From: Moniliella sp. 'wahieum'
Lineage: Eukaryota
Assembly (NCBI GenBank): GCA_003971905.1
Contig: RSEE01000028.1
Location: 248,001 to 312,000 of the forward strand
DNA: 64,000 nt
Direction: 5' to 3'
In this document: piece by piece, positions 2,571 through 62,024 of the stretch
How the letters are laid out: every line of letters begins with the position of its first letter
Numbering within the stretch: position 1 is the stretch's first letter
Notes under the pieces: model-generated
What the model was told of the DNA's origin: nothing
Databases searched by the model: none
The model's input: only the letters and a program-made list of their open reading frames with translations
Position numbers and translations under genes: made by a program

Positions 2571-3470
2571 TGTCGGGGTGGATGGCGGGGGGGAATGCAC
2601 ATTCGCCCAGTTGGGTGATCACAGTTGTCTTGACCATCTCGCCTCAAAAATGTACTTGTTGCGCGAAAGAAGGGCTGGGGCCGATTGCTATACGTATACT
2701 ACTGCAGACAACCAATGTTTTCTAGAAGGTATGGATTTCAGGAGCGGATGTCCGACAAGCGTAATGACACGCAACCCATGACGTGTGCAAGCACACGCGG
2801 GCTAGGTGCAAAGTGATGCTTGGCGAGCATGTTCTGGGCCACGCATGAAACTCGTACGCCAGTAGAGAGGCTGGCGACGAGCGATTAATGGGCCCATTAC
2901 CTGTCCTCGGCACAGAAGAGAAAGAGAAGCAACGACAAGGAGAAGGTTAGTGTGTGCATTCGACATGCATTGCGATGCACTGGCTTGGGCTTGGGGGAGT
3001 GGGCGGGGGGCCTGGATGGCGGAGGCGAGCGTGGTGGTCGGACAAAGAAACAGAACCGCCTTGTTCAAGCTGAAATAAGAAGAACAAAACTGGGCAGCCT
3101 CCACCGCGGAACGAGGCGCGGAACTGCATCACGTGCTGCTGCGTAAGATGCACGTGTACGCTAGGGTTAGATGGCGCGTTGATGCAACTTTCAAGCTTTA
3201 CGGGCCAAAGACACTGATGATGTCATGCATACACTGCCCCTGCAGCACTGTGAGCCTGAATAGTGACTGCCCTTCTGCTCGCTCACTTTGTCCAGATACA
3301 GTACCAATGTGACATGTCACTCGCAGGCCTTACCTTGTGTCCGTGCATGCCGGGGCTGGATTTGTCAGGCCTGTGCAGAGCTGGATGGACCCATGCATTC
3401 GGTAACCGGCAATCGAACATGCATCATGCATCATTCATCCTTAATCCTTAATCAGCGGACATCAGCCGCC

Positions 3471-5100
3471 ATGGCCTGGCCCCCCTTCCCACCGTTTCCT
3501 GAGCCCGACCACCAGCAGGCTCAATCCACTCGCCTCCCTCCCCACCTCGTTTCTGCATCTTCCCACTGCTCCTCGTCTCTCCTCAAGCGACTTACCCCAA
3601 CGAAGAATGCCTCTCAAGTACGAAGAAGTTGCCAAGCATACCTCGCGCGACTCGTGCTGGGTTATCGTCCATGGCAAGGCATATGATTTGACCGACTTTC
3701 TCCCCGAGCACCCGGGGGAAGCAAGATTCTACTAAAGTATGCAGGTCACGATGCCACCAAGGCGTTTGACCCCATCCACCCTCCCGGCACCTCGAGGAAA
3801 ACCTACCAGCGGACAAGTGTCTCGGGCCGGTCGACCCGGCGACGCTTCAAGGTGGGGTGGCGTTGATCGACAGTGAGAAGGCGGGGGCCGAGGCAGGAAA
3901 AAAGCCGAGCCCGACTCGCCTGACAAGGTACCCCTGCTGGGCAAGGTGCTCAATCTGTTTGATTTCGAGGTGATTGGCCAGCGTGTGCTGGATCCCGCTG
4001 CCTGGGCCTACTATTCCTCGGGCGCTGACGACGAGGTGACGCTGCGTGAGAACTCGGCGGTGTTTGGTCGGGTTTGGTTCCGGCCACGCATCCTCGCGAC
4101 GTGTCCCACGTTGACTTTTCCACTTCCATCCTCGGTCATCGCACCTCGCTTCCTGTTTATGTTACGGCCACTGCACTGGGTCGGCTGGGCCACCCCGACG
4201 GGGAGAAGAACCTGACGTGGGCGTGTGGCAAGGAGAATGTGATCCAAATGATTCCCACCTTGGCCAGCTGCAGCATGGACGAGTTGGTGGAGGCGCGCAC
4301 CCACGAGGACCAAGTCCAATTCTTCCAGCTCTATGTGAATGCGAACCGCAAGTAACAGAACGGCTTGTACGCAAGGCGGAAGAACGGGGAATCAAAGCAC
4401 TGTTTATCACGGTGGATGCGCCGCAACTGGGGCGACGGGAAAAGGATATGCGACTGAAATTTGACGATGTGGGTTCGCAAGTGCAGAATGACGAGAAGGA
4501 GGATGTGGACCGGTCGCAAGGCGCAGCCCGTGCCATTTCCTCCTTCATTGACCCTTCGCTCAGTTGGGATGACTTGCACTGGTTCAAATCCATCACCCGT
4601 CTGCCGCTCATCCTCAAAGGCGTTCAGTGCTGGGAAGATGCCGTGATGGCGGCCGAGGCTGGTTGTGCTGGCATTGTTATCTCCAACCACGGAGGCCGAC
4701 AGCTTGACTTTGCCCGCTCGTCAATCGAAGTGTTGGCAGAGGTGGTGCCAAATTAAAGGAGCGCAACTTGTTCCCCTCCCCTTGCTTCCAGATCTTTGTC
4801 GATGGCGGCTTCCGCCGTGCAACGGACGTGCTCAAGGCCATTGCGCTGGGCGCAACAGCAGTGGGGATTGGGCGGCCGTTTCTGTATGCGTATTCGGCGT
4901 ACGGTGCGGATGGGGTGGCTCACGCCTTGGGTTTGCTCAAGGCGGAAATGGAGATGAACATGCGCCTCCTCGGGGCGCGTACCTTGCGGGGTGACGCCCG
5001 ACATGATCGACACACGCTCCCTTTACTCGCACATCAATCCCCCCCGTACTCGATGGGCTCCCAAATCTGGCACACCTAGCCTGGCAGTGTCCAACTCTTC
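3471..5100 (+). CDS. CYB2: Flavocytochrome b2 / L-lactate dehydrogenase (cytochrome b5 domain + FMN alpha-hydroxyacid dehydrogenase); 3' end approximate
   Basis: b5 domain ([19 protein letters not shown]), [53 protein letters not shown]. Confidence 0.92.
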
Positions 5101-6461
5101 CAAACTGTAAAGCACCCAGCCCGCCAACCATGTCAATCGGCCATCACTGTGGATACACAGCTTGCTCGAGCAAGCGTCTCGCTTTGCCATGCTTGAATTT
5201 CTACATCACCACGCGAGCGTTGGGTGGGGTCGGGGAAGGAGAGGGGATCACCGTCTTTCCCCCCCCAACAGCTCCCATTTTTGGGGGCTTCATACCATCA
5301 TTTCCCCAACTCCATAGCTGGAATAGAAGGGAAAGCCTCGTCGAGACGGGCAATGGATCGGACATGAGCTAGAATCTGGTCTGGTGATGCTGCGGACTTC
5401 TTAATATTCCTGAGGCGCTTAGTCGCTCAAGGAGGGGTTACTGAGATGTGCTTACTAGTCCGAGGAAACCATGGCAGTGGTAGCTTGCAGCTGCGCTTCG
5501 ATATCCTGGTCCAAAATCCTTTGGCAGGCCGAGTGGTGGCCGGCGGTCACGTGATGCATGCGAGCATCAGATGTGATATCGCACGCACACGTCCTTACTC
5601 AATCACATCAATTGCGATTGCGACCTTGCGCCAGCTCGGCAGGCGGCATCGCGCATCCCAATCCCTCGTCCTTCGTCCCCGGTCCGGTCACGAGCTCACC
5701 GGTCCCGGGCTGCTTGAAGAGTGACTAGTGAGTGCGTATTGGCCTGAGGCACTGGGACGCAGTACGCACCGCCGCGGACTTGGTGGCTAACCACTGAGCC
5801 CTGCTGTGGCCTTGCTGCGCCTCGCCAGGCTTGCCTCAGCGCTCAGCCAGAGCAGGACGCCACGCCGGACCTGCAGCACCTCGCACTGCGGCAGCTACGG
5901 CACAGCGGCAGCGCACTGCCCCTGTGCGTCGAGGTGGAACATTCGACTAGCGCTGGCCCATCGGCACGCATGTCGGCTGCCCCAGAGTGGGGCCATGCGA
6001 GGGCCGTCCGGGCGGCTGCGAGCAGATCGCACTAGTTCCTGGCGCCGCGCTGGCTCGGCTTCTTAGCTTCTTTGGACATCTGATCGATGATCGACCAGAT
6101 CACATCTCAGATCGGGCCAATGAGCCGGCGCTGTCCAGCACGGCGGCAGTGCTGCGTAGTGCGGCATAGTGCTGCCCCGTGCTACGCTAGCCTGCGCTCT
6201 GTTGTTTGCTGTGCCGTGCCACGAGTCAGGCAGACATCCGGCAGCAACCCGGGCTGCCACCGCCACCGCCCCTCCCCCGCCTCCCCCATCCCCACTTCTC
6301 CTTTGGCCAGCTCTGCGAGTAGCCTCTTTCCTACCTGCACTCCCATCCGCGTCCTGGCTGGCGTCCTGGACCTCCCATCCCGCCTCGCTCTCACCAAGCT
6401 CCGCTATCCGCCAAAGTCACCTCACCATCTTTTTTTCACACGCAACACCCGTTTGGTAACA

Positions 6462-7680
6462 ATGAAGTTCGCTCTCTTCTCCTTCACTACCCTCCTCGCC
6501 GTTGCCCAGTCCGTCCAGGCCCTCCATCTCGGCCTGGCATGGGCTGCCGACCCAATGGGCCCATGAGATGGTTGGAACCCCGCGGTCAACAGTTACCATC
6601 ACTGGGAGGTGCGTTCTTCCATTTCGTCTTCTCTGCGACTTGTCGCTGAACCAGCCTGAATTTTTGTGATGATGGGCCACATTCCCCAGCTTTCCCACGC
6701 GGGTCTCCAGTTCGTGCCCACGCGCTGGGGTACAAGAAGAACAAAGACTGGCCTCGTCTGCGTAGCCTGTTCCCCAAGTACCGCTACCCTTCCTTCTTGC
6801 TTATAATGAGCCCGATGTGTCGTCTCAGTCCGACTACTCGCCTCAGGACGCTGCCGCGGCGTTCCAGCGTGAGCTTGCTCCCCTGCGTCAGTACGGCACC
6901 CGTATCTCCTCGCCCCAGATCTGCTGGAACGCGGACTGGCTCGAGCAATTCACCCAGTCCCTCGCCAATAAGGGCGGTACTACGATTTTGTCGCTGCTCA
7001 TTGTACGTTCCCCTTTCCCTTGTCGTGCTTCCTGACCGACGGAGACAACGGATTGACATTTCTGTTCTTCCAAGACTACGGCAGCTGGAAGTCGATCGAC
7101 CAGCTAAAGAGCTATGTTCAGGGCTTGCACCAACGTTTCGGCAAGGACCTTTGGATCACCGAGTATGGAGTCACTGCTTCGTCCAACCCGTCCACTGCGC
7201 AGGCCAAGCAGTTCATGATTGATGCTACCGAGTTCTTTGCTTCGACGGGCTATGTCAAGCGTGCCTTCCCTTCGGCATGTGGGCCACCCCTCCCGACACG
7301 CTTTGGTTCGGCGCAGAACGCGGCGTTTTTTCCAGTCCGGCAGCCTGCGCTCGCTCGGCAAATACTACCGTGCGTACTCGGCCTCGAAGCGCTCGCTCTC
7401 CGGGCATCTCCTCATTCGCGCGTGATGCGCCGCCAGCGCAACCTTCTTGCCCGTCTTGCCCAGCCCGACCCTGCGGATGGGAGAACTGGGACAATGTGAC
7501 GGAGACGTCCACTGCGACGAACAGTGCCAAGGCCGTGCTCATGGCTTGCCAAGATCAAAGATGCCCCACCCTTCAACGCCTCGGCTCGTGGCCCGGCCCT
7601 TGACCATGACTACACCCACCGTGCCTATTGAGGACTTTGTTGCAGAGCCCATCGCGGCGGACGACGACAATGACTTGTAA
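6462..7680 (+). CDS. Secreted GH128-type beta-1,3-glucanase (introns ~6609-6655 and ~7003-7074)
   Basis: Signal peptide MKFALFSFTTLLAVAQSVQA, with catalytic-type motifs FLLAYNEPD and LWITEYG. Confidence 0.8.
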
Positions 7681-9678
7681 TGTTGTTCGTCTTTGTGTGT
7701 CGGAACACTTGCCCGATCCTGCTTAATTTTGCGCTTGCTCCTCGTTTTTTTTTGCTTGCACCTTCACGGCTTCCCACTTCCACCCCTTCGCTACCTGATC
7801 TTCACTGCTTGCACATTCTTCTGCCAGTCACGGTCTCTCCTTGCGTTACGGGCCTTGCCATGGGCCATACCTCCTGTCTCCCTTCTCTATCCGCGTCTTT
7901 CTTTTGTTGTTCCTTTGTGTCGGTTCTCGCCCTGTGATTTGGCCCCAACTGTGTTGGTTTGGCCAGGCGCAACAGTGGTTCCGTCTTGGCGTGCTTTCAT
8001 GTCGCCAGTGTTAGTACTGCTCCAATGACACTTTCTTTCTTTCTTTTACCTGCTGTTGTTTTGTTTATACCTTTTTGGCAACCTTGTGCATAGACACTTT
8101 GTCTGCGCTTCCTCCCCCCTTCCAATCGTTCGAAGATCTGGATTCGAATGGCCCCTGCATTCGCTATGTCGTTACATTCACCTTTGCCCCTAGAGGCAGA
8201 CACCGTGCGGCTCTGGCGCGCGTGGTCCACCATGGTTACTTGCTTAACCTGGCTTGTTGATTCATAAATCAAGTGGCGGATTCCAAGTTGGAAAGATGGA
8301 TCTTCCGTCATGGACCTTATGCAGCCCCTCCATACGCAGCTGCGGCCCTTTTGGAAAGGCTATACACCTTGCGAACACTTTCTCTCTCCACCGCGGTGGG
8401 CTTGAGGTCTGAATTCCTGCCACCAGCACCGCATCCCAAAACCACAGTCCCAGTCCCTTTAATCTGCCCCGGTTCCCACCGCCTCACCTTGCTGCTGCCT
8501 CTCCCGAACACTATTGGGACCCGCGGTCCCGTACATAGGCCAAGGCGCCTTTTCACCCGTTGCCCCTTATTTGACCTCCGAAGCCTCCACGTGTATACTC
8601 AGGCTTGTTTGAACCCTTGTTTCCTCTAGATGGGGCGAGGCTTAGACCTAACCACCACCACCGCGATTGCATTGCTCTACATTTCCAGAGGTTCATCACC
8701 CAACCCTTTGGGTTCCTCCTCGTCTTACAACAACATGTGAGGGGTTTTGCTGTGATCACAATCGTGATCGCGCTCACAACCGTAGTTTTTTTTGCCCATA
8801 CGTGCTAACGGCGCCCGGTGGGGGGAGGATGCTCTTCTTTTGTGCACGACGGGTGTGTTGGAGGGAGTGGCAGTTGTGACAAATGTATAAGGGTGGGGGA
8901 ATGTGTGTGGGCATGTGTGTGGGCGAAGAATTTGAGAACAAGGCAAGTCCACCGAGAGAACGCGCAGAATATTGGAGCTGCGGCTGCCAATGCGTCCGCA
9001 TGCAAAGCAGAGACTGCCCTGTGGTGGGCTATCCACCTGGGCGTGGAGGATGGAGAGCTGATCCGATGAGTTGGGCCCCGTCCGCGAGACAGGGAATGAG
9101 TATAGAGAACAACAGGAGGGTCGGGCGGACCTTTTCAACTGGCGTCGCGGCAAGTGGGCTGGAGTGGGACGGGGGCAGTACATGTGGAGGGGGGGGCGTG
9201 TTGGTTCCTAGTTACTATAGTTACTAGGTTTCCCAGCACATTGCACACGCAGACGTATCTACGCGTTTACCCCGCCTACCACTCTCGTGGGTGGCGCCAA
9301 GCCCGCGGATGCCAAGCCGAAGTTGAAACATTGGGCGTGCCGGGCGGCTGCGTTCCGATTGTTGCTCATCGATCATCGCCCGTCGGGTGGCGCAGGGCCA
9401 CCGTGTTCAGGCACGTGACTGCTGAGCTGGGCCTGTCTGCTGGCACCGATGACACTCACGTCGTAGCCGTGGCTGCCGGTTGGCCGGAGGCCCAACTACT
9501 ACCTACCGCGTCGCCCCCATCCCCCCGCCACGACCGCCCGCATTCTCCGTCGACGCTCAACCTTCCCGGGTGCGTGTTGGGCTCAGCGCGCAGCCCGCGT
9601 TCCACGTCCACGCTTCCGCCCACCACCACCACCACCCGCCCCGCACTGCATCCATCGCTGCCACCTGGCACTGACGAA

Positions 9679-11837: not shown

Positions 11838-12121
11838 TTGATTATCCTCCCACCGTGGTTCTTCCCTGGTTGATGGACAGCGGTCCTGTTGACCGAGTCC
11901 AGCCTGGAAGAGCATCAGGGGGCGGGAGGTGGAAGAGAGAAGGAAAAGGGGCTTCTATCATCCCTTTTTCCCTCCCCCCGCTTTTTCTCTTTCTCTCTTT
12001 CTCTCTTGCCCACGTGCTACATGGACTGACAAAACTCAATTTTCAATGCTCATAATCCCACTGTATCAGGCACTTTCTCTGCAACGAGTCGTCTTTCCCT
12101 CCCCTCTAGATCACGTCCATT

Positions 12122-12890
12122 TCATTGACAGAGCTTAAGGCTGGGACAGGGGGAACGCTACGTCTAAACCTAACCGTTCATCTTGCGGGGGTTACTTGGA
12201 AGCGCTACCAAGCTTAAGGAACCAGCGGGATCGCCAGGATATCAGGACCCTCCGGTTCTCGCCATCCGGTCCCGTACCCTAGGAAGCGCGTGTGGACACG
12301 GAGGAACGTGGTTGATATCCGAGCGAGGAACCATTTCCACTGAGACTTCGAATAGCCAACTCCTTCCAATGCGCAAACAACTTGCCCGCTGTCTTGGTGC
12401 CGTAGTATCCTCGCGTCGTCAAAACTAGGGGGAAAAACGGCTCTTGAGTGCGTCCCTGGTACTCGCGCGTTCTTGTCGCATTCTGCTTGTTCAAGCAACC
12501 GAAGCAGCTCCTTCTCCCGGCGTTCCAAGGGGGTTGCGGTGCTCTCATGCACCACCCTCCGGAACGCGCTCTGAGCCTCCAGCGATCCCGTGTCGCGCAG
12601 CGTGTGGTCTATCTCCATTCCTGAGCCTCCGAGTGCTCCGGGCCCCATCACGCGGCAGTCGGTGCGCTGTGTCCTCTGTCTCCTGCCATCCCCTTCCTCC
12701 ACCATAGGTTCGTTGCGGACGTGGGTGTCGGGGATGGAGCGTAGGAGCTGGAGAATGGGCTCCCAAGCCATCCGGCGATACAGGCTTCCAAATTATACAC
12801 GCTGTTTTTGTCAGTGCAAAGGCAGAGCATAACCCTAGCGACCGGAAAATGCCCCTACGGTATATGAAACTTTCGTGTGGTAGGTAGCTT
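12122..12890 (-). mobile_element. 5'-truncated, degenerate non-LTR retrotransposon, CRE/Cnl1/MoTeR-like, restriction-like endonuclease C-terminus
   Basis: Minus-strand peptides LPTTRKF, CLC..NLEAC (knuckle remnant), VRNEP..RTDCRV..EIDHT, LEQAECDK, FFPLVLTTRG and ARISTTFLR. Its 3' 139 bp recur at 38323-38461. Confidence 0.7.
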
Positions 12891-17080: not shown

Positions 17081-17352
17081 GAAATACGATGCGGCGGGTC
17101 ACCACCGATGTTGCGGCCAGCAGAGGGCAGCAGGAATGAGTACAGAGTGAGGAGTGAAAAGGTGAGTTGGGACTAATGCACTAATGGGCACTAATGGGAT
17201 ATGCGCGGGGAAGAAGAGGATGAACAAGGGACATGCAAATGTGAGAGGGATGAATGGGTAAAAAATTGAAGGGACGCAATGCAAAGAGAAGGAGGAGATG
17301 GTCCTCTTTTGGTGGAGCAAAAGCAAGATGCAGATAAAAGGAGAGGCTCGGC

Positions 17353-20691: not shown

Positions 20692-22551
20692 TGGGACCAG
20701 AGTAGCGCGAGGGCAGGAATGGTGGTCTCAAGGGCTCGAAGTGTAGGCTGGGATCGGGACAGTCATGGAGGCGATTGGGGGGGGGGGGGCAGGAAGGACG
20801 CTAAGGTTGAAGGACAGAAAGGGGGCAAGCGATCGGAGCGGCCGAGGACAAAAGAGTGGAGGGGGTTCTACCGGTTACCGTCGAGGCGCGGTGAAGCTTG
20901 AAGGCGAGGTGCCGGAGCGGATCCAGCCGTCTTTGATGACTCGATAGCCCTCGTGACAAAAAAGCCAAGCCAAGCCGAGCAAGGAGGAGTGGGAGCAGTG
21001 TGATCAGTACGTCCTGTCGATCAGATCTGCAAGTTCCGGCCGGCCGTACCAGCAGCGCGCACAACGGGAGGTGGTATAGACTGAGCCGGGTGGAATGGTG
21101 CCGGCTGGCGTTGGACTATAAGGCGCATCTTCCGATCCAGATCTTCCCGTTTGTTGTCTGTTGTCCGTTTTCCCCGACACGACTCACTGCGTTCGCTCTG
21201 CCTGCTCGCTGGGCCTGAGCGTCCGGTTTGGCCTGGGCGCTTGGCGCACAACCCGTCGTCATCGCCTTCTCGATCATCGACACAACCGGCCACCCTCGGA
21301 TGGGTGACACTGATGCGGACGCGCTGACGCACCACACATCACCCATCAGGCACCGCCGTCAGGCGCCACTGCACCACAGCAGGCCACAATCATCCAATGA
21401 ATCATCTGCCAGGCAGGGCCGATCATCGATCACCCATCCTATCGCGGGCCTATCGACGGCGGGACACTGCCCCTGTCCTAGTCCGTTAGCACCCACAGCG
21501 AGGCTGGCGCTGTGCGGCGCAGCGCCAGTACTCACGCAGTGTATCAAGTACGCTCAGTCCGCAGTGCTCAGTCGGCCAGTGCCGGCTGGTGCCAGCAGCG
21601 TCGATATCGCAACGCGATCAGCCGTGCTGTGCTCGGCCGTGCTCAGCGCGCCGCGGCTCGGCGGCCCAGCCCTGCGCGGCCTCCGCCATCTTCTTCCCTG
21701 CTTTCCCCGCACCCTTGGCTCCCCCTCGGGCCGGACCGGACCTGTTGGAAAGCGCGGATGGTCGATAGACGATAGACGATGTTGGCAGCACACACTCCCC
21801 ATCCGCCCCCTCTCCGCCTCCTCTCGCAGCCGCCGTCGCACTGATTGCACTTGGCTCAAATAGTCCATCGCGCTCGGGCGCAAACCGACGCAAAGCAAAG
21901 CCTGCGAAAAGACGCACCAGCCAGCCCATTCTTTCCCTCGTAAAGCTTAACCTCCTTCTACAGATACCCATCCTCCCAAGCCAATCCTCATTCGTATCTC
22001 TTGTTCTATAGGCAGCATCGACATCCACCCTCATTTTTTCCCTTCTTCGCGCGCCGCGCGTATCGCCAGGTACATTGTTAGCGCGGTAGCGTTATCGCTC
22101 CCTTCTTTTCCGTCAACGCCGTCGCTGCACACACTTCAGGGCTTCAGGGACCAAATATCACTACATCACAATGAGAACATGTCAGACCATTGACATATGG
22201 ATCCACCCCCCAAACAACGTCTATGCGTGGTCATGCATTACCTGGCCACCAAACAGCAGCACGGCTGGGGCTTTTGTCCCACCCATGCACCCGCCACGCA
22301 CGGTGCCAGGCCCTGATTGGGGCAGCAAAAAAGAGTACCAGATACGAGGAAGAGGCGGGCAAACACTAACAAGGACAGAGAACTAGGACAGGCAGAGGGC
22401 GCCAAGACGCCCACAGGGAGGGCAGCACAGCAGGCAGACGCGATCCAATGCAGTGTCAGCACCAGGTTCGCAACGACACCCTCTCTTGGTCGTTCTTTGG
22501 CTTTCCTACCACACTCCGGCACGCTCAGCCTTCGGCCCAGCGCATTGCGCT

Positions 22552-24055: not shown

Positions 24056-24722
24056 GTTGTGGGGATGGGATGGGACGGGACGGAGAGGAGAGAAGAGGAG
24101 ACGAGGTGCGATGGGCTGGGCGGGGCCAGGAGACAGACGGCAGAAGAGACGCCAGGACGCGGGAGGGAGGACCAACACAGACAAGCCGGCGGGAGGCAGG
24201 GAGGCAGAAGGCGGCCGGGGCAAGGAAGGAGGCAGCCCAGCCAGGCCAGTGGGAGCACCGCGTGCTGAGCTCAGCCGGGCACTGAGGTGGAGCGCAGGCA
24301 GCCAAGCGCCACCCAATCGGCCGAGCTGGACGGTGAGCGCCCCACCGGTGACCCTCACCCGTGCGCGCCCCTGCTCACCGGTCGCGTCAGACGCAGGGCG
24401 ACACTGCCCGCGCAGACGGCCAGTGTCCGTGCGCATGCGTGGCAGCTGCCCCCGTGCCCGCCGCTTCGAGCGCGTCGCCCCACGGGGCCGCTCAGGCTGT
24501 TCCCCTGCCGACGACAGTGGTGTCGTACGAGCGGCCGCGGCGATCGGTGACCGGTGATCACATGCATCACACGCATCCATCGTCGCTTCGTCTATTACTA
24601 TTCCGCAATTCCCCTGCCCCATCCCGCAGGCGCGTGACCGAGGCACGTGACGGTCACGTGTCACCGTCCCCTTCGCCCCCGCCCCCCATCCACGGCTCCT
24701 ACCCCACCGTCCGTGCGGGGCC

Positions 24723-28703: not shown

Positions 28704-29170
28704 CCTCTCCCCACGTGCGAATCTGAGGCCAGGGTCGGGAGTATGGGGTGGTGATGGTAGGCAACCGACTTCCTTCGCAGTCATGCATCATGCCATCCTG
28801 CAAGGAGCCACACTGCGCCCCACCACGTGGCACATTTGGCGCTGTACATATTCTGCCAACCCTACTGCTGCGGTCACGTGCTGGACCCTCTCCGGTTTTG
28901 GCTGGCCATGGCCTCCCTCGGGCGAAAGTGGACGTGGCGGCGTGCACGCGTACACATCGATGGTCCACTGGGATGCATTTCGTGGGGAAGCGAGCGAGGG
29001 AGAAAACAGGGTAGGACGTCTTGGTCCGGACGAGGGAGGAGAAAGATGGCTTCCAGGAAACCAGAACAGGGCGAATCAACGAGTCTTGTGTATTGTTCAT
29101 TGCGCATTGTGCATTTGGCAAACGTTAGCCATCACCGTGCAAACAAAAAGGCCAACGAAACTGGCCAGGC

Positions 29171-33740: not shown

Positions 33741-36700
33741 GACAGGTGGGGGATGACGGGGGATGGCGGTGGTGGAAGTGGTATTAATGCGCACGCGAGA
33801 TAGGAAAAAGAGGGCGCTTCTAATGTTGTGGCAAGGAGGGAGATGGTCCACGCGCGCGCGTGTGCGCGCAGGCGCGTACTGCACAGTTTTTCAGCATCCC
33901 AGCAAGCGAGTGCGGTTTGTGTGGGCGCTACGTGCCATGTGAAATCTGAGATTCTAAGATCCGACCAGGCTGGCCTCTGGCCCGTGGCCCGCTCGGCTAG
34001 ACGTGGGTTTTGTAGGGCGCTGCCCTGTGTTGCGGTGTGGGGTGTCTACCCATCGACTTCTCAGCACCGAGCGGGACCATCGATCGCCATCGACCAACCA
34101 ACTGCATCACGGCCGTCGTCAACGTAGTTCAACGAGTTCAACTGGACGTTGAATTCAATGTTCAACCGAACGTTCAATATATTCTACCGCCCCCGTTCGA
34201 CGGCCGAGGAGCTGAGGTGGGGCCGTGAGATGCCTGGCGCGTTATTGGTGACGGCTCACTGAGGGGCAGCGAGTCATCGATCATCGCATCAGAGCTCAGC
34301 CTGAACATAAACAGAAGAAGCACGCGGTGGGAGTGTTACATGTTACTAGTTGCTGCTTTCGTCCTTGCCACCGGCACAAAACGTCGTTCATATCACCGGC
34401 CAACTCGCACCTACCCGCTGTTATACTACTCCTGTCGGCGCCAGCTCAGCACTCGGTCCCAAGTTTTCCCTCCATTTTGCCAAAGCTTGAAGATAAGAAT
34501 CGTATTGACTCTCCATTTGCCCTTGCCTGTCGTCTCCCAGGCACCGAGGCAACGCTGAGGAGCTGAGGTTCATGTACATACAGGCTCAGCGCTCAGTGTG
34601 AGCCTCAGCCGCACTCAGCAGCCGCGGAACCGAACCCCACAAATGGGGGGACTCGAAGCTTGGAAAGCTTAAGCTATTGTAAGGGCTTGAAGATATAGCA
34701 CTCTTATCATTTGTAAAAGCTTCAACCTTCAAGATAAAAGGACAAAGGGAACGCCGTGTGCCACCGCTGCAGCACTTATATCAGAAGAGGCTCTTCGCTC
34801 ACGCAGCGTGTGCAGCTAATCCGTGCCCACATCAAGCAGGAGGCCAAAACCAGTCGAGGAGAGTCATCGCCAGCAGATGAGGCTATCGCTGCCCTCTCAG
34901 TGACTCCCCCCATTCTCCGCTCCCAAAAAGAGGCCGAATGTATAGCGCGAGTGGATGCGAATGAGCGTGGTAGACATGTGTACAAAGCGATAAAAACAAT
35001 CGATAAACGATCTCCAATGATATAGATTCTTCCCGTCGATCACAGTATGCGATTCTGCAGAGGAGGTAGAGGAGGGTGTCTATGGTTTGGACAGCACTGC
35101 ATCGCCCTCCGTCTCTGCAGGAGGACGAGAACACTCCATGGCGGCGACCGGGATCCGGCCGGTTTGAACACAAGCCAACAGGAAGGTTCACATCAGCGTT
35201 GCCTGAACGAGAGATCCATGGCTGGATGCACCAGCTACCAGCATTAATAACAAGTTTGATTTGGACATTTCTACCTGGACAACACTGTCGATCAAACGAG
35301 CTTAACTTTCTGCGTATCTTCGTTCATCGTCTTGGCAGCGCAGATATGACGTTGTTTCTGTACACAGGTGTGACTCCACTCTACTTTGCATTTTGGAAGC
35401 ATAGATAAGTAGAGATCAACAGAAAAGTGTTAAAACGACCTTGTTTGTCCTAGCTTCTCCCTCATAATAGACTTGTCGGCACTGCCACCTCCTCTTTCTT
35501 TGGACAGCTGACACAGTAACTAAATGTTCAGTGTGGATTCGGTCGATGCGACGATGCGTTTCTTGAATGAGGAGTACTTCAAACGAATTGTAACCATCTG
35601 AATTCCCGAATCTCAAGCGAATGAGCGGAGAATTTTGAATTGGCGCATGCACAACCCAGTTGCACAGAAAACAAAAACGGCACGTCGTGCCATCTCCTTA
35701 TCATCTGGATCCAGGCCAGCATCTCGGAGATCGCAGTCGACGAAAGTGAGAGCGGAAGTCTGGGTTGGCCTGGACCGACGACACATAGTTCGCTACTGCC
35801 GCTGCCGTCAACGTCCTCAACAGCTGTTGCAAGTGGCGTAGAGTCGGATATGGGAGTGAAGCGGTGGCTAAAGAGTTTGGGCTGGCTCGCGCTACCAAAT
35901 GGGAGGCGTTCGCTCAGCTTGACCTGGATGGTTTCACAGCAAAAAGATTATGGTTGCGATCAGCTCAACCAGCCCGCCAAGCGACACTGTCCCTTGGCTG
36001 CAGCAGCATGAAAACGTCACCGTCATGATTCTGATCGCAAAACGCGTGTCCAATGACTTTACTCGCATCTCCGCCGTAGTTGCGAGCCACTGTGCGTCAT
36101 CTTGTGGATGAAAGGCACAAGACGTCGCTGGAGAAGTAATAGAGCACTCGTTCCTCCATGAATATACGCGGTGCCGGCAGTGCACCTCAAATTGTCGGAG
36201 CAGATGTGGAGAAGAAGGCATTCAAGACCAGCATTCGCCCGCTCTGCGTCCAGCTCTATCGTGAAAGGAGAAGTATGTGTTTGTTCGACAGAATCCGATC
36301 CACTGTCTGAATAAAGAAGGCGCTTGGTTCCTCAATGTTCTATGCTCTGAATTCCAGCCGGGTGAGGGTTCGTCAGTGGTCATGTGGTGCTTTTACCGCC
36401 TGCCACCCAACAAACGAGTTCCTTCTCTACTGCGAGTCGCACAGGAGGGCACACCAGTCCCTGTGAGGATGTAAATATGCTGCCCGAGCGAATCGACTTT
36501 TTGGCCCAAGTGACCGGCATCAGTTTCTCCAAAGTATGGCTGAGCAAATCCGTTCATCACTTCGGCCCAAGCCCTATATATACAGTAATGCAGAGTGACA
36601 ATCAATAAGAGAGAGAGGGCCGCTCCCCAAAAGCAATCAGCCCCCGAAGCGAGAGCCAACCTAACCTTGGGCCTGACGAAGACGCCTGATATGCTGATGG

Positions 36701-37821
36701 TATATAGCCGAAAAGGTGCGCGTTCTGAACCACAATCCCAATTGTCTTCTTATTGCTAGAGTCGATGGCCTGTCAATAATGCGCGAGAGGGTGAAGTGAT
36801 CCAGACGCGCCATAGGCGGATGACTACATCCAAGTCCTCACCGAGGCAACAACAATTCGAGTGCAATTGCTGAGGATTACGTGCGATGATATACAAACTC
36901 CCTTAGTTCACCAAATGACTTTAATGACTGGGCACCTCTGTGGCTCCAGATTGATCTTGGTTGCCATTCCACCCTACGCCCGAATGCTGTGGTTATACCA
37001 TTCGAGCGGTTTCCGATGGCTTCCAGGCTATATAACTGGCATCGCCTCAACTTTTCTGGACGTTAATTTCCCCCGTCGGCACCCCACCTTACCCACCCCC
37101 ATCCACTCCTCCATTATAGGCTTTGGTATTCTGATGATATTTTCCTAAGGCATGGCAACTCGATGTCCCTCTCTCTCATTTCCTTCGCCTCCCCGCGGTT
37201 CATGAAATGTTTTGGTCACAAGATACTGAGCCGCTTTGTGCATAACGGAATAACCGACACTCACCCTCTCGAGTGGCGTGAGATGCACGCAGCTCTTTCT
37301 AGTATAGTAGCTGTCTCTTGCGCCGTAGAGAATGAACAAAGAGAAAAGATGATTGAAAGGCATCGACGGCGGAGAGAGGATTTTCGAGGGGTGAGCTTCA
37401 GGGCGCTGGTTGAGAGATGATCGATGATCGCCATCGATGCCCAAAAATCGATAAGCGATCGCGATAAAGCGATCGTAAACAACAATCGTTCCTGATGCAG
37501 ATTATGCATGAATGCATGAAACGTTGAACACGTTGAACGTTGAACGTAGAACGTCGATCGTAAATTCTCGATTACCGATCTATTCAGACATAAACGTTAG
37601 ACGTTAAACGGGTAATGCTTAAAGCCTTTAAGATGCTGTTAAAACGATAAAAGAACGTTATGCGTTAACGCGTTAAGCTCGTTAAGGCCGGCCTTTTAGG
37701 CCTACCTAGCTTTGGCTTTTGAGTCGTAGAATGGTATTACGTTGCCGGTGGCGATTCCCAGTTTCAGGTTACCCATTAGATCGATTGTCGATTATCGATT
37801 CGATTATCGATTATCGAGATA

Positions 37822-38324: not shown

Positions 38325-38470
38325 GAGCCGGAGGGTCCTGATATCCTGGCGATCCCCCTGGTTCCTTGACCTTAGTGGCGCTTCCAAGTAACCCCCGCAA
38401 GATGAACGGTTCGGTTTAGACGTAGCGTTCCCCCTGTCCCAGCCTTAAGCTCTGTCAATGATATGAATTC
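38325..38470 (+). mobile_element. Very short 5'-truncated retrocopy of the element at 12122-12890, flanked by a 10-bp TSD
   Basis: 38323-38461 matches the reverse complement of 12122-12260 (7 mismatches in 139 by my alignment). AAAAGGGAGA occurs at 38315-38324 and 38471-38480. Confidence 0.85.
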
Positions 38471-41400
38471 AAAAGGGAGATAGAGATACCTGTCACATGT
38501 CACATGTCATGCACGTTATACTGCGGGCAGCTGTGCCGGCGGAAGGAAAAGATAGTTTGCGGTGCGATGGGAGTATTAGCACAGGTAATACATACCTGGG
38601 ATGGGCGCAATGCTAGGCGCTGTGCACTGGGTGGGGAGGCGGTATAAACGACTACTACTTCAAGGAGAACGAGAAAGAAATCATCAGAGTATGTAGTCAG
38701 TACATCCGATCTCGGAATGCGGAGTACAGCGTACATGGATGAATCGATGAGCGCTGAGCCAAAGATTAATTTATCACTACGCCGTGGCTACTGTAACGCG
38801 TGACGTATGACCTCTGACACATGTGGCGGCCGTTGACAACGTTGACATGGTACGTTGACACGTTGACACGGGAGTCCCTAAGGCCTAAGGTCCCTCCTAG
38901 TTTGTCCCTCCTGCCACCGGGAATTTGGTATCTGCCAGGGTAGAAAATTGGCAGAACGCATCGAACGTTGAACGTACGTGTACGTTGAAACACTGCCCCA
39001 TCGATCATCGATATGGGCTTTCGTCTTTACATAATTTTAGCACTGCTCTAGCCGCGTGCCCGTCGACGGCTGTCTCAATATTTACGCCTAACACGATCAT
39101 TGCAGCGCCCGCCGGCATGTGCTGAGGACAAGGCCGCATGCCACCTGTCACATGTGCCGGTGACCGCGACGCAGGGACGCAAACAGAACCTGTGACAGGT
39201 GACGCGGTGACGTATGTATCTGACATGCGACATCGCGGCTGACATCGACACATGTCTGCACAGCGCTGCACTGCCATGTGCGCCACGGTCTCGTATTTGT
39301 TTACCTGCTCTCGCCATCAACGTCATCTATCACCACGTCATCGTGCCCGAGTCATCATGCATCATGCATCATGCATCGTTGAAGCTTCACGCTTCACGCT
39401 TCAAGCTTCACACCTTCATGACGCAGTCTCCAGCTCATCAGATGGCTGATCTCAATACTCAATGATCGAGCTTTTCTTTTCGTCGTCTGGGGACGCAATC
39501 TTATAATCATGCAGCGCCATATAGCGTGTTGCCGAGCACACAAAATATTCAGCGGGAGCACACTCATAATCCTAGCGCTCTCGGCGCTCCCTCAGCGCCT
39601 CGGCACAGTCGCTCGCCATTGAATGAGCGCTGAGTAGGTCCAGCCTGAGCGCTGGGTCTCAGCGCTGAGTACCTGAGTATGAGACGCGCAATACTCTCTA
39701 TGTGTTCAACCAACGTTCACCATTACTTTCTATGTTACAGAGCCCACCAATCGGGTTCAGACTGGAAGCTGTCCCTCATCAATCGTCACCAAATCTGGCA
39801 ACCAAATAGACGATGGGGATTGATTGCTGATGAGCGATAGTAAACCGTCGCGGTGAGGGAGGAGAAGGAGGATGGAGTGAAAGAGAGGGAAAAAACTAAG
39901 CTACGATTACCGAAGCTTCGAGAAGGAGGCACGTCGGACTGTCGCACTTTCGCCCGGGCGGATGTAGCGGAGCTAGCAGACGGATGGAAGTGGTTGGGAA
40001 CGTCGGAGTCCGGCTATACCCTTGGCACACTGCACTAGTGTCCCAACGACACATGTGCCTCGTCGTAGTCCGCATCACACGGAGCGCCTCTCCCGTGCTG
40101 TTACGCAGAGGATCATTAATCAGTTATCACTTAATCACTATACACAAGCGCCAGAAAGTAGGGCAAAAAGTCTTTTGTAATTCAGACAGGCACCGATCGT
40201 CGATGGCGTATTGAAGCCGAGATATTGTGGTGGAACTCTCCGCCCCTCTGCGCTGTCTTACATTTCGTCCGTATGGTCCCCCGTCCCCGTGTGGCCTGAA
40301 TTTTTTTGGAAGACGAAAAGGGCATTTGAGTTTGCGGGCGGTGAAACTCTTGCAGCGCGTTGTTGAAACGCTTCATATACATACTCATGCATGATGCATG
40401 ATACATATGGTGCAATATGTCAGCCTGAGCATCCTGAGGCCTGATGGCCTCAGCCTCAGGGGCCAGGATGCGGGTTTTTACATATTATTTTAGTAACACA
40501 AAGCGGCAAATTTTGAAGGCTGGGGTTTAACAATGCCTAGGATACGAACAGGGGCTGGAGGCTGAAGGAACCTTCGTTTTGGTGCCTATGTATGTATCAG
40601 GCATCGTACGCATCATGCAACTTTCAGTACGGCCGACGCAACGTCTGTGCACAGGCTGAGCCAGCATTATTAAATTGATCGATGATCTCAAACTAATAAA
40701 CAAGGCTGCCATAGTCGGGAAGCAACGAGCATGGACTCACAGAAGTACGCTTCAAGGAGGCAAATGACTTTGTTTTTCATTCACTGGCGAAGCCTGAGGC
40801 CGATGAGGTCTCAGATGGAAGTTCGCGCATTAGCACGGCAATAGGAAGGGAGCGGAGGAAGGATTGCCAAATTGTACTCAAGAGACCCGTAGCAAAGCCT
40901 ATATAGGGACTAAAAGGCGGACCTTTTATGCCCAAGGCGAAAGGGAAAAATCAGTTGAAGGTGCCTCGGTTCATGCTTTCTTTCTTGAGCCAACTTACAG
41001 CGTAGGGATAGTCTGTCGACGCCGACGCCCTACTTGGCGGAACGAAGCGGACAGGGGGATTCGCAGAAGTGTGGGTACGAACCCGCAGGAACCGGGCGTC
41101 GGATTGCTGAAGTGCAGCCTTATACAGACCTACTCAGGGCGCCTCAGATCCCCCGTAACTCAGTAATACTTAGTACCCCGGGGCAAACAGTACACAGCAC
41201 TCATCTCAGGCTGAGCTCAGGGCGAGGTCCTCTACAGATGAATATGGCATGTGGACATGTTACATGTGACGTGGGACAGTTGACAACAAGGCGAAACAGC
41301 CGTACACCGATCACACACCGGGTATCATATACGTGTACGTACTCAGTAAAGACACCCCCGGATCCACCATCCATCGACCATCGACCATCGACCATCGACC

Positions 41401-41921
41401 ATTTTTGATCGCAGACACCCATTGCGTCTGCGACAGACTACAGACTAGACCCCGCCGTCTGCGACAGACCACAGAATAGCCCCATCATACATCTGCATCA
41501 TGCACCATGCATCACACGTGCGCCACCACTAGCATGTGAAATGGGGCAGGTGGCAGCGTGAAGCTTAAAGCTTTACGCACACTGCCTCCATTTCGGCTGG
41601 ACCGCTGGGATTCGGTGGTCGATGAGCGAATGATGCATATCGATGATCGAGGATTGGCTGTCCGGTCTTCCGGTGACGGGACGCCATGACCCGGTGACTA
41701 TGACTCCGCCGGGGAGACCAGTGCCCTCCAGCGCCTCAGCGCTGATGCATGACGCATGCTTGATGGCCCTGCAGATTGAACGCGGCTGAGCGGCTCCGCG
41801 CTGAGGCCGAGGCCCCCAAATCCGGTGCGACAGGAGCTTCTGCAGCCCCCGTCTTTGCCTTAAAAGACAACACACACCGCCTACCCGCCCCTCCCCCGTG
41901 TTTCCCCTCCCACTCGCCATC

Positions 41922-44161: not shown

Positions 44162-44197
44162 GTACTCAGGTACTCAGTACTCAGTACTCAGTACTCA
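44162..44197. repeat. Heptamer array (GTACTCA)x5
   Basis: Read directly; one of the T-N-A + palindrome arrays. Confidence 0.9.
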
Positions 44198-46276: not shown

Positions 46277-48271
<1,995 letters not shown>

Positions 48272-49018: not shown

Positions 49019-49139
49019 GGGAAGGGAAGGGAAAAGGGAAGGGAAGGGAAGGGAAGGGAAGGGAAGGGAAGGGAAGGGAAGGGAAGGGAAGGGGAAGGGA
49101 AGGAAGGGAAGGAGGAAGGGAAGGGAAGGGAAGGGAAGG
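49019..49139 (+). repeat. (GGGAA)n microsatellite, ~120 bp
   Basis: Read directly; starts ~15 bp downstream of the SH3 gene stop. Confidence 0.95.
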
Positions 49140-49152
49140 ATGCCATGGGTTA

Positions 49153-58623: not shown

Positions 58624-58967
58624 CGTCGGTGGGGGGGGCGGCGGCGAGGAGGCTGGCCGAGCAGATGCGGCCGGCGCGGCTGCGGGCCTACTCGCGAGTC
58701 TGGGGGCTGAGTCTGCCTGGGCCCAGCAGCCCCCTGCAGGTCACCTGACCGGGCGGAACGAAGAGCCGCTGGGCCTGTGCTGGCTGCAATTTGAAATGCA
58801 CAAACACACGTGACCAGCAGCGCTGCCCACGGCGACTGACCCTGCCTGCACACTCGCCCGCTGCCACGCACACTCGCCCGCTGCCTGGATATCGCATTCG
58901 CATTCGCCGTCGATGCTCGGCCCTGTCACATGTCACATGTCATCCCAAGCATCCTGCATCCCCCGCG

Positions 58968-60204: not shown

Positions 60205-60532
60205 GGCGGCAACCGAGCGGAGGCGAGGCGGGGAACACAACGGGTAGGTTGCTGGCGTCGGCCTGTAGTGGGAGGGGGAGTCAAGCAGGCCAAGGCAACA
60301 ATGCAGACGGGAGGATGCTCGCAGGGAGGTGAAGTTTGGAAGGAGCCAGGTGCAGAGGAGGGCTGGCCACTGGCCGAAGGGGCGGACGACAGCAGCGGTT
60401 TGCGTGGGGATTTGAGATGCGAGGACTGAGTGAGATATGGATGCGCCTGTCCAAGCAGCCCAAGCGCTGCCGCGCTCACGTCACCCCACCCTCCGGCCGC
60501 ACCCATGACGTGTGACATGTGACTCGCTACGA

Positions 60533-60573
60533 GTGACCAGTGACCAGTGACTAGTGACTAGTGACTAGTGACT
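60533..60573. repeat. Heptamer array (GTGACYA)x~6
   Basis: gtgacca gtgacca gtgacta gtgacta gtgacta gtgact. Confidence 0.9.
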
Positions 60574-61317
60574 GCCGCCCGAGGCAGTGTGGGGCACGTG
60601 GGTGGGATGCAGCAGCGTCACCCGTCACCCGTGTCGGTCATGCGTGGTGGGGAGGCACAACGCCAGTGTGGGCGCAGATGCGCCCTCGCTAACCCTGCCG
60701 TTTCCGCCACGTGCCAGGAGGCGCTGTGGCGCCCCGGAGATAAGGGCGACGGAAGGCCACGGCGCTGGACGGGCTACACGCAAAGGCCACGCAGTTGTCA
60801 TGGGTTCACCCATACGTTGCCATGCAACACCAGGAGGATGCATGATAATCGATAATCGATAGTCCCTGTCTTCCCCGGCCCTCTCTCGTACTTCCTCACT
60901 GCCTGCGTCCTCATACGCAGTCTACAAATACACCCCTTGTCCACACTGTGTTGCCAACAACCTGCACCACAATCATATAGGGCCTGCCACCAACATTAGT
61001 TGATGCCGCCATCTATACTCTTTGGGGGGTATCCCTACAAGGTGGGCCAATCTCTGTTGGAAGCGAAGAGATTACGCGAGTGCTAGTCGTTGATAATGCG
61101 ATAGCCCAGCGATCCCTTGCAGCAGCGTTTGTGGATACTGTTTTGTACCTGAGGCATGTCAAGCGCATGGGGGCGTGAGAGCGTGCGCCATTGTCCACCT
61201 ATGTACCAGACACCCTACTGTACCCCTTTTGATGGTCTCTCCTTGTGATGCATGCGATGCAAATAAACGGATGAACCAGTCAGTCATATGCTGCCCAAAG
61301 TCCCACACTCGGCCCCA

Positions 61318-61351
61318 TTACCGGTTACCGGTTACCGGTTACCCGGTTACC
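61318..61351. repeat. Heptamer array (TTACCGG)x~4.5
   Basis: Read directly. Confidence 0.9.
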
Positions 61352-61991
61352 TCTGCCCAGGTATTTTTGCTTTTCGCAGCTGCAAGTAAGAGAGCCACCC
61401 TCCATATACCACGATGCATTATCGGCATATCGATGATCACTCGTCGATCATGGAGGTCATCGAGATCATCGATCATCCTTCTGATCCTGCTGAGGCTGAG
61501 GCGCTGAGGCCAAAGAACAGATGGTGCAGGTCCAGTGCCTGTTGGGCTGTGCGCAGCGCAGCGAGGAGCGCGGATCCTCATTGGCCGGAAGGCCCACGGC
61601 GGCAACCGACGACGCGCTCGGGTGCCTGCTTGGGTAGCCACATATCGAAACGAGTGAGAGAGGCGCCGGAGATTGTCCTGAGGCTTTTGGCTGAGGGTCT
61701 GAGGATCTGAGATCTGATGCACTGATGTGCATGAGGCCTGAGGTCTCAGGGCGGATGATTGGTACACGGTGGCCAGTGGGTGGGTGGCGGCAGGCGGTGG
61801 CTGATGGGCTTGGTGTGGCTTGCAGTATTGGCAGTGTATCGGCGGCCATACTGGATACCAGATCATGCACCATGCCAGACCAGCCCACAGCCATCCAATG
61901 TCACACGGACAAATCACATGTCACAATCTCACATGTCACAATCTCACATGTCACATGCATGCCACATGACATTGTCACAGACGCTGTCAGT

Positions 61992-62024
61992 CGTGACGCG
62001 TGACGCGTGACGCGTGACGCGTGA
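61992..62024. repeat. Heptamer array (CGTGACG)x4.7
   Basis: Read directly. Confidence 0.9.

What the first reader, a model, noticed from the sequence alone, without database searches (positions are those of the whole stretch)
3420..62024. One grammar behind many unrelated intergenic repeats: (T-N-A + 4-bp palindrome)n, period 7
Seen: arrays with different sequences follow the same rule, a TGA/TCA (sometimes TTA/TAA) triplet alternating with a 4-bp palindrome. Examples: CTAG (5722-5731, 60548-60571), CGCG (61994-62024), CCGG (24548-24557, 61318-61340), GTAC (44170-44197), TCGA (6081-6094, 60844-60861), ACGT (37530-37554), TGCA (39355-39377, 40385-40401), CATG (38493-38509, 58926-58942), AGCT (39380-39410), GCGC (39624-39633), GATC (61704-61717), GGCC (40435-40444, 61732-61741). 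That is all 12 G/C-containing 4-mer palindromes; I did not see the four A/T-only ones. TGA and TCA mix within one array, and some arrays change palindrome in register (TCA-GCGC-TGA-TGCA-TGA at 41736-41752), which simple slippage does not produce. Inference: a sequence-independent process makes short inverted duplications at T-N-A centres. Candidates are fold-back or template-switch synthesis, hairpin-capped break opening, or a nuclease cutting near TSA with a fixed stagger. A dimeric protein selecting TGA half-sites 4 bp apart is an alternative. From memory, Ustilago maydis intergenic DNA has related TCACGA/TCGTGA heptamer arrays; this is unverified here.
Basis: partly seen in the sequence, partly recalled or inferred. 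Interest (0 to 1): 0.8.

Follow-up and report, generated by a model that had tools for sequence, protein, structure and literature searches.

The report
Transposon excision scars forming heptamer repeats
The non-coding DNA of this smut-related fungus is dotted with tiny 7-base insertions at T-any-A sites that are most likely scars left when a cut-and-paste jumping gene landed, duplicated 7 bases and later cut itself out, so they record past jumps and seed new short repeats.

Summary
In the window 68 of 167 TNA-N4-TNA spacers are palindromic (about 10 expected); other centres show no excess. The rule recurs genome-wide.

It is not an inverted duplication at TNA. Homeologous contigs show one-step indels XY-TNA-UV <-> XY-TNA-Y'X'-XY-TNA-UV (29 of 71 clean 7-nt indels; controls 0). 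The duplicated stretch almost never passes the 7-bp window NN-TNA-NN, and the added palindromic part is 2 nt.

I found a young ~4.9-kb TIR element family (CTCACTG ends, EnSpm-like transposase remnant). Its targets are NN-TSA-NN at 12 of 12 distinct flanks, and 5 of 6 complete copies carry an exact 7-bp duplication.

Best reading (0.78): footprints of flank-hairpin excision by such transposons, extended by repeat visits and slippage.

Against: this family's flank preference is much narrower than the scars' (8/12 vs 16/211). No autonomous copy was found, no excision was observed, and no reads were listed.

Earlier scan notes reached the same reading on other windows of this genome and supplied the element lead. 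New variant of a known kind.

The parts
759..770 (.). 7-nt scar, TCA-ACGT-TCA, one flank templated
3422..3433 (.). 7-nt scar, TCA-TGCA-TCA
5720..6092 (.). three single 7-nt scars: CTAG (5720-5731), GCGC (5836-5847), TCGA (6081-6092)
9366..9377 (.). 7-nt scar, TCGA
17173..17186 (.). 8-nt class scar (one target base kept past TNA)
20892..21432 (.). two 7-nt scars: AGCT (20892-20903), TCGA (21421-21432)
24546..24557 (.). 7-nt scar, CCGG
28781..28792 (.). 7-nt scar, TGCA
34274..34595 (.). cluster of three 7-nt scars: TCGA (34274), CATG (34334), GCGC (34584)
36914..36929 (.). 9-nt class scar: whole 7-bp target duplicated plus 2 palindromic nt
37416..37815 (.). cluster: TCGA (37416), 8-nt class (37507), 9-nt plus ACGT array (37523-37545), 8/9-nt classes (37663-37686), TTA-TCGA-TTA (37802)
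38491..38890 (.). cluster: CATG x2 (38491-38509), GCGC (38748), 9-nt class (38832), 8-nt class (38854), TAA-GGCC-TAA (38877)
39199..39678 (.). cluster: 8-nt class (39199), TGCA x2 (39353-39373), AGCT with slipped CGCT units (39380-39410), 8-nt class (39665); complementary-centre dimers at 39380 and 39659
40385..40687 (.). TGCA array (40385-40401), GGCC (40433-40444), TCGA (40676-40687)
41736..41752 (.). palindrome-switching array GCGC/TGCA; its outer flanks do NOT match the two-visit prediction (one of 3 such among 24 switching arrays)
44164..44197 (.). GTAC x3 array preceded by an 8-nt class unit
58924..58942 (.). CATG x2 array
60511..60857 (.). CATG (60511), CTAG x3 (60546-60573) preceded by slipped non-palindromic CCAG units (60532-60551), TAA-TCGA-TAA (60844)
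61318..61743 (.). cluster: TTA-CCGG x3 plus 8-nt unit (61318-61350), TCGA (61464), 8-nt class (61495), GATC plus 8-nt units (61698-61727), GGCC (61732)
61914..62024 (.). three CATG scars inside a 15-bp tandem repeat (61914-61955) and CGCG x4 array (61992-62024)
62407..62422 (.).

Best explanation
Each unit is an excision footprint of a cut-and-paste DNA transposon that duplicates a 7-bp target XY-TNA-UV (mostly TGA/TCA). (1) Insertion duplicates the 7 bp. SHOWN for resident CTCACTG-ended, EnSpm-like elements. (2) Excision seals both flanks as hairpins. INFERRED from the palindromic additions. (3) A host nuclease opens each hairpin 2 nt off the tip, leaving 4-nt self-complementary overhangs next to TNA: UV-V'U' on one side and Y'X'-XY on the other. 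INFERRED; the product is SHOWN. (4) End joining keeps one overhang whole and usually removes the other down to TNA, perhaps helped by T-A pairing within TNA. This gives TNA-p4-TNA, a net +7 nt; partial trimming gives the +8 and +9 classes. Products SHOWN, route INFERRED. (5) The scar is itself a symmetric target, so repeat visits and 7-nt slippage build arrays, and visits resolved towards opposite flanks give palindrome switches. INFERRED. More than one related family, or older ancestors with looser flank preference, must have contributed.
For: Homeolog alignments (323,512 columns, 19 blocks): 29 of 71 clean 7-nt indels obey the rule for TNA, against 0, 0 and 0 for ANT, CNG and GNC centres. 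In 20 of the 29 the empty allele lacks 1-2 of the inserted bases, so they are not slippage insertions. Of 295 isolated same-centre dimers, exactly one flank templates the palindrome in 182, both in 47 and neither in 66. Bases kept past TNA, j = 0/1/2/3/4: 596/55/46/4/1 in 514 kb, a sharp stop at the 7-bp window; products that also keep V' or V'U' exist (5 and 2; 3 and 6 in partner contigs). An unbiased scan of 35 geometries shows its main excess at arm 2, loop TNA. Resident elements: 13 of the 14 matches of a flank-unbiased terminus search that were confirmed as family ends have TNA in register; the 14th is the homeolog of an in-register copy with 2 extra nt. Twelve of 12 distinct flanks are NN-TSA-NN against a background of 3.8%. 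Five of 6 complete copies have identical 7-bp repeats on both sides. The five long copies differ by 0.25-0.83% and carry Tnp2/EnSpm-like fragments (profile E 1e-11). Twelve of 24 switching arrays have both outer flanks as two opposite resolutions predict. TNA positions diverge at 0.015-0.034 against a local background of 0.047, as expected without selection. Precedent: P-nucleotide footprints of Ac/Ds in Candida (PMC5873905, passages).
Against: The family's targets are much narrower than the scars': SW-TNA-WS in 8 of 12 target duplications but only 16 of 211 scar-derived sites, so it cannot be the only author. No autonomous copy was found. The majority sequence of five copies is broken and lacks the N-terminal catalytic region, and PF02992 finds only two matches, neither with TIRs that I could detect. 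In the aligned homeologs about 33 scar indels stand against no polymorphic element with a TNA-centred 7-bp duplication. The window holds no element. Direction (insertion or deletion) is not polarised by an outgroup; only one repeat-copy case is polarised, and imperfectly. One complete copy has non-matching flanks. A minor class XY-TNA-XY-Y'X'-XY-TNA (19 of 85 period-9 cases) and the complementary-centre class are not predicted by the simple model. Several 14- and 21-nt jumps from empty sites need hot sites or fast slippage. No excision event was observed.
Confidence: 0.78

Rival explanations
1. No element ever sat at these sites. A free or domesticated nuclease (for example the TIR-less Tnp2-like gene at G000:C34:513-517 kb) nicks 2 nt outside TNA, and a repair polymerase switches template onto the displaced flap or folds back, pairing TNA with TNA, copies 2 nt and rejoins.
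For: It explains the dominance of j=0, the multi-unit jumps and the large excess of scars over resident elements. The C34 gene shows both D motifs, CxxC, HxxxH and the E motif across three long frames, read by eye against the profile consensus, and no TIR was detected.
Against: The j=1 and j=2 classes have no pairing at the joint and stop exactly at UV. Classes with palindromic bases from both ends exist. Real elements duplicate exactly this 7-mer. The C34 protein is only about 30% like the elements' remnant, and it has no homeolog in the assembly to test selection. The other TIR-less copy (C17/C62) decays neutrally: 68 non-synonymous against 19 synonymous codon changes in 540 codons, versus 9 against 26 in neighbouring genes.
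Confidence: 0.12
2. Selection for a dimeric DNA-binding protein (TGA half-sites 4 bp apart) or for cruciform-forming DNA builds the motifs stepwise.
For: Scars are non-coding (1 of 54 and 3 of 223 in predicted coding DNA, crude model) and clustered (variance 6.5 against mean 1.6 per kb).
Against: All 16 palindromes are used; one outer flank dictates the palindrome; alleles differ by whole 7-nt indels; divergence at TNA is at the neutral level and at the spacer is not reduced.
Confidence: 0.03
3. Ordinary slippage: tandem duplication of pre-existing 7-bp odd palindromes, with the polymorphisms being microhomology deletions.
For: Slippage does extend arrays: non-palindromic units are copied at 39384-39403 and 60532-60551, and 9 of 29 rule-fitting indels are plain tandem changes. 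Polarity is untested.
Against: Monomer odd palindromes are enriched only 1.28-fold (ANT 1.24-fold). Tandem duplication predicts both flanks matching, seen in 47 of 295 against 182 one-sided.
Confidence: 0.04
4. Artefact of an error-prone long-read assembly.
For: The assembly has many 1-nt indels (2,196 of the clean gaps) and frameshifted conserved genes.
Against: Scars sit at the same places in both homeologs (263 ungapped dimer views, mean divergence 4%), avoid coding DNA, are shared by five copies of one element, and match a true target duplication.
Confidence: 0.02

Closest known systems
Ac/Ds (hAT) excision footprints with P nucleotides, flank-hairpin model (PMC5873905, passages read)
   Same: Short palindromic additions copied from the flank at the repaired joint, one or two dominant footprints, and short P tracts in a fungal host.
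   Different: Ac/Ds palindromes are centred on the complement of the base next to the element end, and the target duplication is 8 bp. Here the apex is flush with a 7-bp TSA-centred duplication, P is 2 nt, the transposase remnant is EnSpm-like, and the scars are an old genome-wide deposit, not assay products.
EnSpm/CACTA and the CMCT clade, incl. fungal CNIRT6 and CNEST (PMC12730594 and PMC12810828, passages read)
   Same: Tnp2-like transposase remnant with HxxxH and the terminal E motif; CACTG close to the end (CNIRT6 begins CACTG); subterminal repeat arrays.
   Different: Those papers give CA..TG termini and 2-5-bp duplications (3 bp for CNIRT6, TA for CNEST). Here the ends begin CT-CACTG and the duplication is 7 bp with a fixed TSA centre. 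Neither paper mentions footprints or hairpins (0 occurrences).
V(D)J coding joints and Transib excision (recalled, no call)
   Same: Flush flank hairpin, opened about 2 nt off the tip, giving a 4-nt palindromic overhang and P nucleotides; the same CMCT-related fold per PMC12730594.
   Different: Transib duplicates 5 bp (recalled); coding joints are heterogeneous and have no target duplication.
'10-bp repeats' of Ustilago maydis, suggested to be TE footprints (cited in PMC4081816, passages read; the primary paper is not held)
   Same: Numerous ~10-bp intergenic repeats in a smut genome, read as footprints; TNA-p4-TNA is 10 bp long.
   Different: Their sequence and rule are not given in what I could read, so identity with this grammar is untested.
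hAT7 of rust fungi (PMC12730594, passage)
   Same: 7-bp target duplication in a basidiomycete.
   Different: hAT transposase; no TSA centre is reported in the passage.
Short template-switch mutations (PMC5453318, search listing and start of abstract only)
   Same: The 7-nt product can be written formally as two template switches.
   Different: No fixed motif, fixed geometry or matching transposon target is part of that model as far as the listing shows.

Membership tests
Flank-hairpin transposon excision footprints | Direct duplication limited to the length of a target-site duplication | tested here: met
   j = 0/1/2/3/4: 596/55/46/4/1
Flank-hairpin transposon excision footprints | Palindromic nucleotides complementary to the flank end | tested here: met
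   596 of 819 period-7 XYTNA repeats have the exact 2-nt complement; 29 of 71 indels
Flank-hairpin transposon excision footprints | A resident element with the same target duplication | tested here: met
   12 of 12 NN-TSA-NN flanks; 5 of 6 complete copies with a 7-bp repeat
Flank-hairpin transposon excision footprints | Scar sites share the element's full target preference | tested here: not met
   SW-TNA-WS in 8/12 target duplications against 16/211 scar sites
Flank-hairpin transposon excision footprints | Scar seen to form on excision; hairpin intermediate | not testable with these tools
   needs an excision assay or population reads
EnSpm/CACTA (for the CTCACTG element) | Tnp2-type transposase homology with H(3-4)H and the last E | tested here: met
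   fragments match positions 306-627 of an 811-position profile of Tnp2 homologs, best E 1.3e-11; HxxxH visible
EnSpm/CACTA (for the CTCACTG element) | Termini 5'-CA..TG-3' | tested here: not met
   all 18 termini begin CT-CACTG
EnSpm/CACTA (for the CTCACTG element) | 2-5-bp target duplication (PMC12730594) | tested here: not met
   7 bp; a CACGG-ended element of the same genome has 2 bp
EnSpm/CACTA (for the CTCACTG element) | TIRs and subterminal repeats (the latter recalled as a CACTA trait) | tested here: met
   38 of the first 40 nt inverted; repeated short subterminal motifs
EnSpm/CACTA (for the CTCACTG element) | Intact DDE transposase | tested here: inconclusive
   majority sequence broken and N-terminal catalytic part not detected; the assembly is indel-prone
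hAT7 | hAT transposase | not tested
   no hAT family search was run; the remnant found is EnSpm-like
Slippage microsatellite | Empty allele already holds the whole unit | tested here: not met
   20 of 29 rule-fitting indels have only 5-6 nt of direct repeat
U. maydis 10-bp repeats | Same sequence rule | not testable with these tools
   sequence not given in PMC4081816; primary paper not held; no fungal genome collection

The most novel reading that the evidence does not exclude
An undescribed EnSpm-related lineage with a 7-bp TSA-centred target has visited this genome tens of thousands of times. Because each scar is a better, symmetric target than the site it replaced, the footprints self-propagate into a new class of heptamer repeat next to genes. 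In the boldest form a TIR-less, host-kept Tnp2 gene now drives the cutting, RAG-like.
Probability: 0.25. Interest if true: 0.8.

Novelty: new variant of a known kind. Interest (0 to 1): 0.55.

Why it matters
If right, the genome holds roughly 60,000 scars (about 0.9 per kb from 54 in 64 kb and 223 in 230 kb, extrapolated; homeologs are counted twice). They would form a fossil insertion map and a direct natural read-out of how a CACTA-related transposase excises (flush flank hairpins) and how the host opens them (2 nt off the tip). They also show a route from transposon traffic to new tandem repeats without resident repeats, and extend the target-duplication range of the CMCT clade from 2-5 to 7 bp. 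The work makes the old suggestion that U. maydis 10-bp repeats are footprints testable with one rule. The chemistry itself (hairpins, P nucleotides) is known.

Tried and rejected

Inverted duplication at TNA: rejected as the main route (same centre in 54 of 68).

Tc1/mariner-type remnants of element ends as the 4-mer: rejected because the 4-mer copies the host flank. A 3-bp TNA duplication (Harbinger type) was rejected for the same reason and because the duplication runs to 7 bp.

TIR plus TSD scan of about 0.85 Mb held locally: no TNA-centred 7-bp case. The element family was found only through a lead from earlier notes.

CACGG-ended 5.1-kb element: 2-bp duplication, not the source. Solo-LTR-like inserts: 5-bp duplications, one of four with TNA. 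Tnp2 relic at C17/C62: neutral decay, not domesticated.

Promoter versus terminator preference: the gene model was too crude to call strand, so only the coding/non-coding split is used.

Polarising indels with multi-copy repeats gave one imperfect case.

Paper searches listed no paper on this grammar or on a 7-bp EnSpm duplication. Subscription papers and Repbase entries are not covered. Supplements were not read; those of PMC12730594 (termini and TSD tables) and PMC4824034 (repeat families) may bear on novelty. A guessed genus name gave nothing; the organism is placed only as Ustilaginomycotina.

Full report
Setting. The window is G000:C28:248001-312000 of a 69.5-Mb, 223-contig assembly. Its DED1 and Sec61 proteins are closest to Ustilaginomycotina but have no close named relative: best named hits are 89% and 81-82%, and Tilletia Sec61 is 76-77%. 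The assembly is indel-prone and holds homeologous contig pairs at about 87-97% identity, which I used as alleles. Statistics below use a 514-kb non-redundant set. It includes the window and 100 kb that I chose near known CTAG arrays, so densities come only from the window and C13.

Observation. All 19 examples are in place. Palindromic spacers make up 68 of 167 TNA-N4-TNA sites (10.4 expected); ANT, CNG and GNC give 3/134, 29/409 and 32/479; Markov nulls reach at most 28. One array pattern has 641 genome-wide matches against 2 for its control. A scan of 35 arm-and-loop geometries shows its main excess at arm 2 with a TNA loop: 262 of 327 for TGA and 256 of 337 for TCA. All 16 palindromes occur, the A/T-only ones at low rate. 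The window holds 47 loci by the refined rule, with 69 period-7 matches for TNA against 0, 0 and 1 for the control centres. Scars are almost absent from predicted coding DNA (1 of 54, 3 of 223; crude model), about ten times rarer in dispersed repeats (5 in 47 kb against 880 in 857 kb), and clustered.

The elementary event. In 323,512 aligned homeolog columns, 71 clean 7-nt indels stand above the neighbouring lengths (54, 56, 29 and 26 for 5, 6, 8 and 9 nt). Twenty-nine of them turn XY-TNA-UV into XY-TNA-Y'X'-XY-TNA-UV; none does so for the three control centres. In 20 of the 29 the short allele lacks one or two of the added bases, so slippage cannot have inserted them; deletion between 5-6-nt repeats remains formally possible because no outgroup polarises them. 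The standing population agrees: of 295 isolated same-centre dimers, one flank templates the palindrome in 182, both in 47 and neither in 66, and monomer odd palindromes are barely enriched. The event is therefore a direct duplication plus two inverted bases, not an inversion at TNA.

A 7-bp window. Counting how many bases past TNA the first copy keeps gives 596, 55, 46, 4 and 1 for 0 to 4. The 9-nt class also shows genome-wide for one XY (308 matches against 53 control; of the first 100 listed, many repeat UV and many carry XY instead). Two of 29 8-nt and 2 of 26 9-nt indels fit these classes. Products that keep palindromic bases from both ends exist in small numbers. The palindromic addition is 2 nt in every clearly enriched class. 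This is what two flanks of a 7-bp target duplication would give if each were sealed as a hairpin, opened 2 nt off the tip (recalled as typical of Artemis-type opening) and joined with one overhang intact. The A of TNA equals the third palindromic base, so microhomology may help set the dominant joint; microhomology is reported for Ac/Ds footprints (PMC5873905, passages).

The element. Before consulting earlier notes I gave a transposon origin 20%. The notes reported 5-kb elements with 7-bp duplications and CTCACTG ends elsewhere in this genome. A pattern built from those hints gave 6 matches, 4 of them one TIR family. A terminus search not fixed on the flank gave 38 matches against 21 control. 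I held DNA for 16 of the 38: 14 are family ends and 2 are not; the other 22 were not examined. Thirteen of the 14 have TNA in exact register, and 17 of all 18 termini seen do. Four full-length copies (C34, C23, C35, C29) and one 378-bp copy (C20) have identical 7-bp repeats on both sides; the C11 copy has two different TNA-centred flanks. All 12 distinct flanks are NN-TSA-NN against a background of 3.8%. The five long copies differ by 0.25-0.83%, far less than the homeologs, so they moved recently. They carry broken EnSpm/Tnp2-like fragments and look non-autonomous.

What does not fit. This family prefers SW-TSA-WS (8 of 12), whereas only 16 of 211 scar-derived sites are of that type. Other or older relatives are therefore needed and were not found. 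PF02992 and three further protein searches returned only a TIR-less pair at C17/C62 and a single TIR-less gene at C34. The C17/C62 pair decays neutrally. The C34 gene keeps recognisable catalytic motifs over three frames and lies 8 kb from an element, but is only about 30% like the elements' remnant. A CACGG-ended element in C13 has an ordinary 2-bp duplication. No polymorphic TNA-centred element appeared in the alignments. Scars outnumber residents by hundreds to one; about 100 scar indels per aligned Mb is compatible with ordinary jump rates only under an assumed yeast-like mutation rate, which is my inference. The XY-Y'X'-XY class (19 of 85), the complementary-centre class and 14-21-nt jumps from empty sites are unexplained or need extra steps.

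Selection and artefact. TNA positions of dimers diverge at about half the local background, as expected for neutral sites picked as perfect in one allele; spacers are not conserved. Shared positions in homeologs and in five element copies argue against a sequencing artefact, but no reads could be checked.

Comparison. It works like Ac/Ds or RAG/Transib flank-hairpin excision. The element is EnSpm-related by protein but fails two defining tests, termini and duplication length (PMC12730594 and PMC12810828, passages), so I do not file it as a canonical CACTA element. The U. maydis 10-bp repeats were already suggested to be footprints (PMC4081816, passages); whether they obey this rule is untested. 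PMC4824034 (one passage) and PMC4455052 (passages) added nothing on it. Ten searches listed no paper describing this grammar, within the limits of the library.

Verdict. Real, and best read as a genome-wide deposit of transposon excision scars (0.78). It is a new variant of a known kind and was already noted by this scan on many other windows of the same genome. Interest 0.55.

Noticed in passing
L007-L016, L027-L086 (C108/C98, C13/C30, C36/C21 and others): Homeologous contig pairs at 87-97% identity, plus older copies at about 80% for genes of the window, which itself has no close partner: a hybrid or polyploid genome.
   Followed up: partly
L055:1656-6772 (G000:C13:351656-356772): 5,117-bp element with CACGGGCG ends and a 2-bp GA duplication, absent from the C30 homeolog; it carries scars inside.
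   Followed up: partly
L088:2762-6372 (G000:C34): Single TIR-less Tnp2-like gene with both D motifs, CxxC, HxxxH and E motifs over three long frames, scars just upstream, 8 kb from a CTCACTG element; candidate in-trans or domesticated transposase.
   Followed up: partly
L087:3600-6300 and L089: Tnp2-like relic at the same place in two homeologs, decaying neutrally; its upstream region has gained three scar units in C17 only.
   Followed up: yes
L097:241-5089 (G000:C11): Full-length CTCACTG element whose two flanks are different TNA-centred 7-mers: recombination between copies or an assembly chimera.
   Followed up: no
L091/L096, L092/L099, L090/L101, L093: Four of 12 insertion flanks are the same 7-mer at unrelated loci and in both orientations: an unusually strong target preference.
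   Followed up: partly
window 37819-38481 and 12114-12740: Modular dispersed repeat with many copies genome-wide (94 matches); the same modules lie near the ends of the CACGG element.
   Followed up: partly
L056:6163-7010 and three ~214-bp inserts in C13/C30: Solo-LTR-like TG..CA inserts with 5-bp duplications, polymorphic between homeologs.
   Followed up: no
514-kb set, 19 sites: Period-9 class XY-TNA-XY-Y'X'-XY-TNA, as if a palindromic addition had been made on a palindromic addition; unexplained.
   Followed up: partly
211 scar sites: Kept and trimmed overhangs differ in dinucleotide use (GA, CA, GG, GT and TG are the commonest kept; CG, CA, GC and AG the commonest trimmed): a possible end-joining bias.
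   Followed up: no
window 49014-49139: (GGGAA)n microsatellite of about 24 copies, unrelated to the grammar.
   Followed up: no
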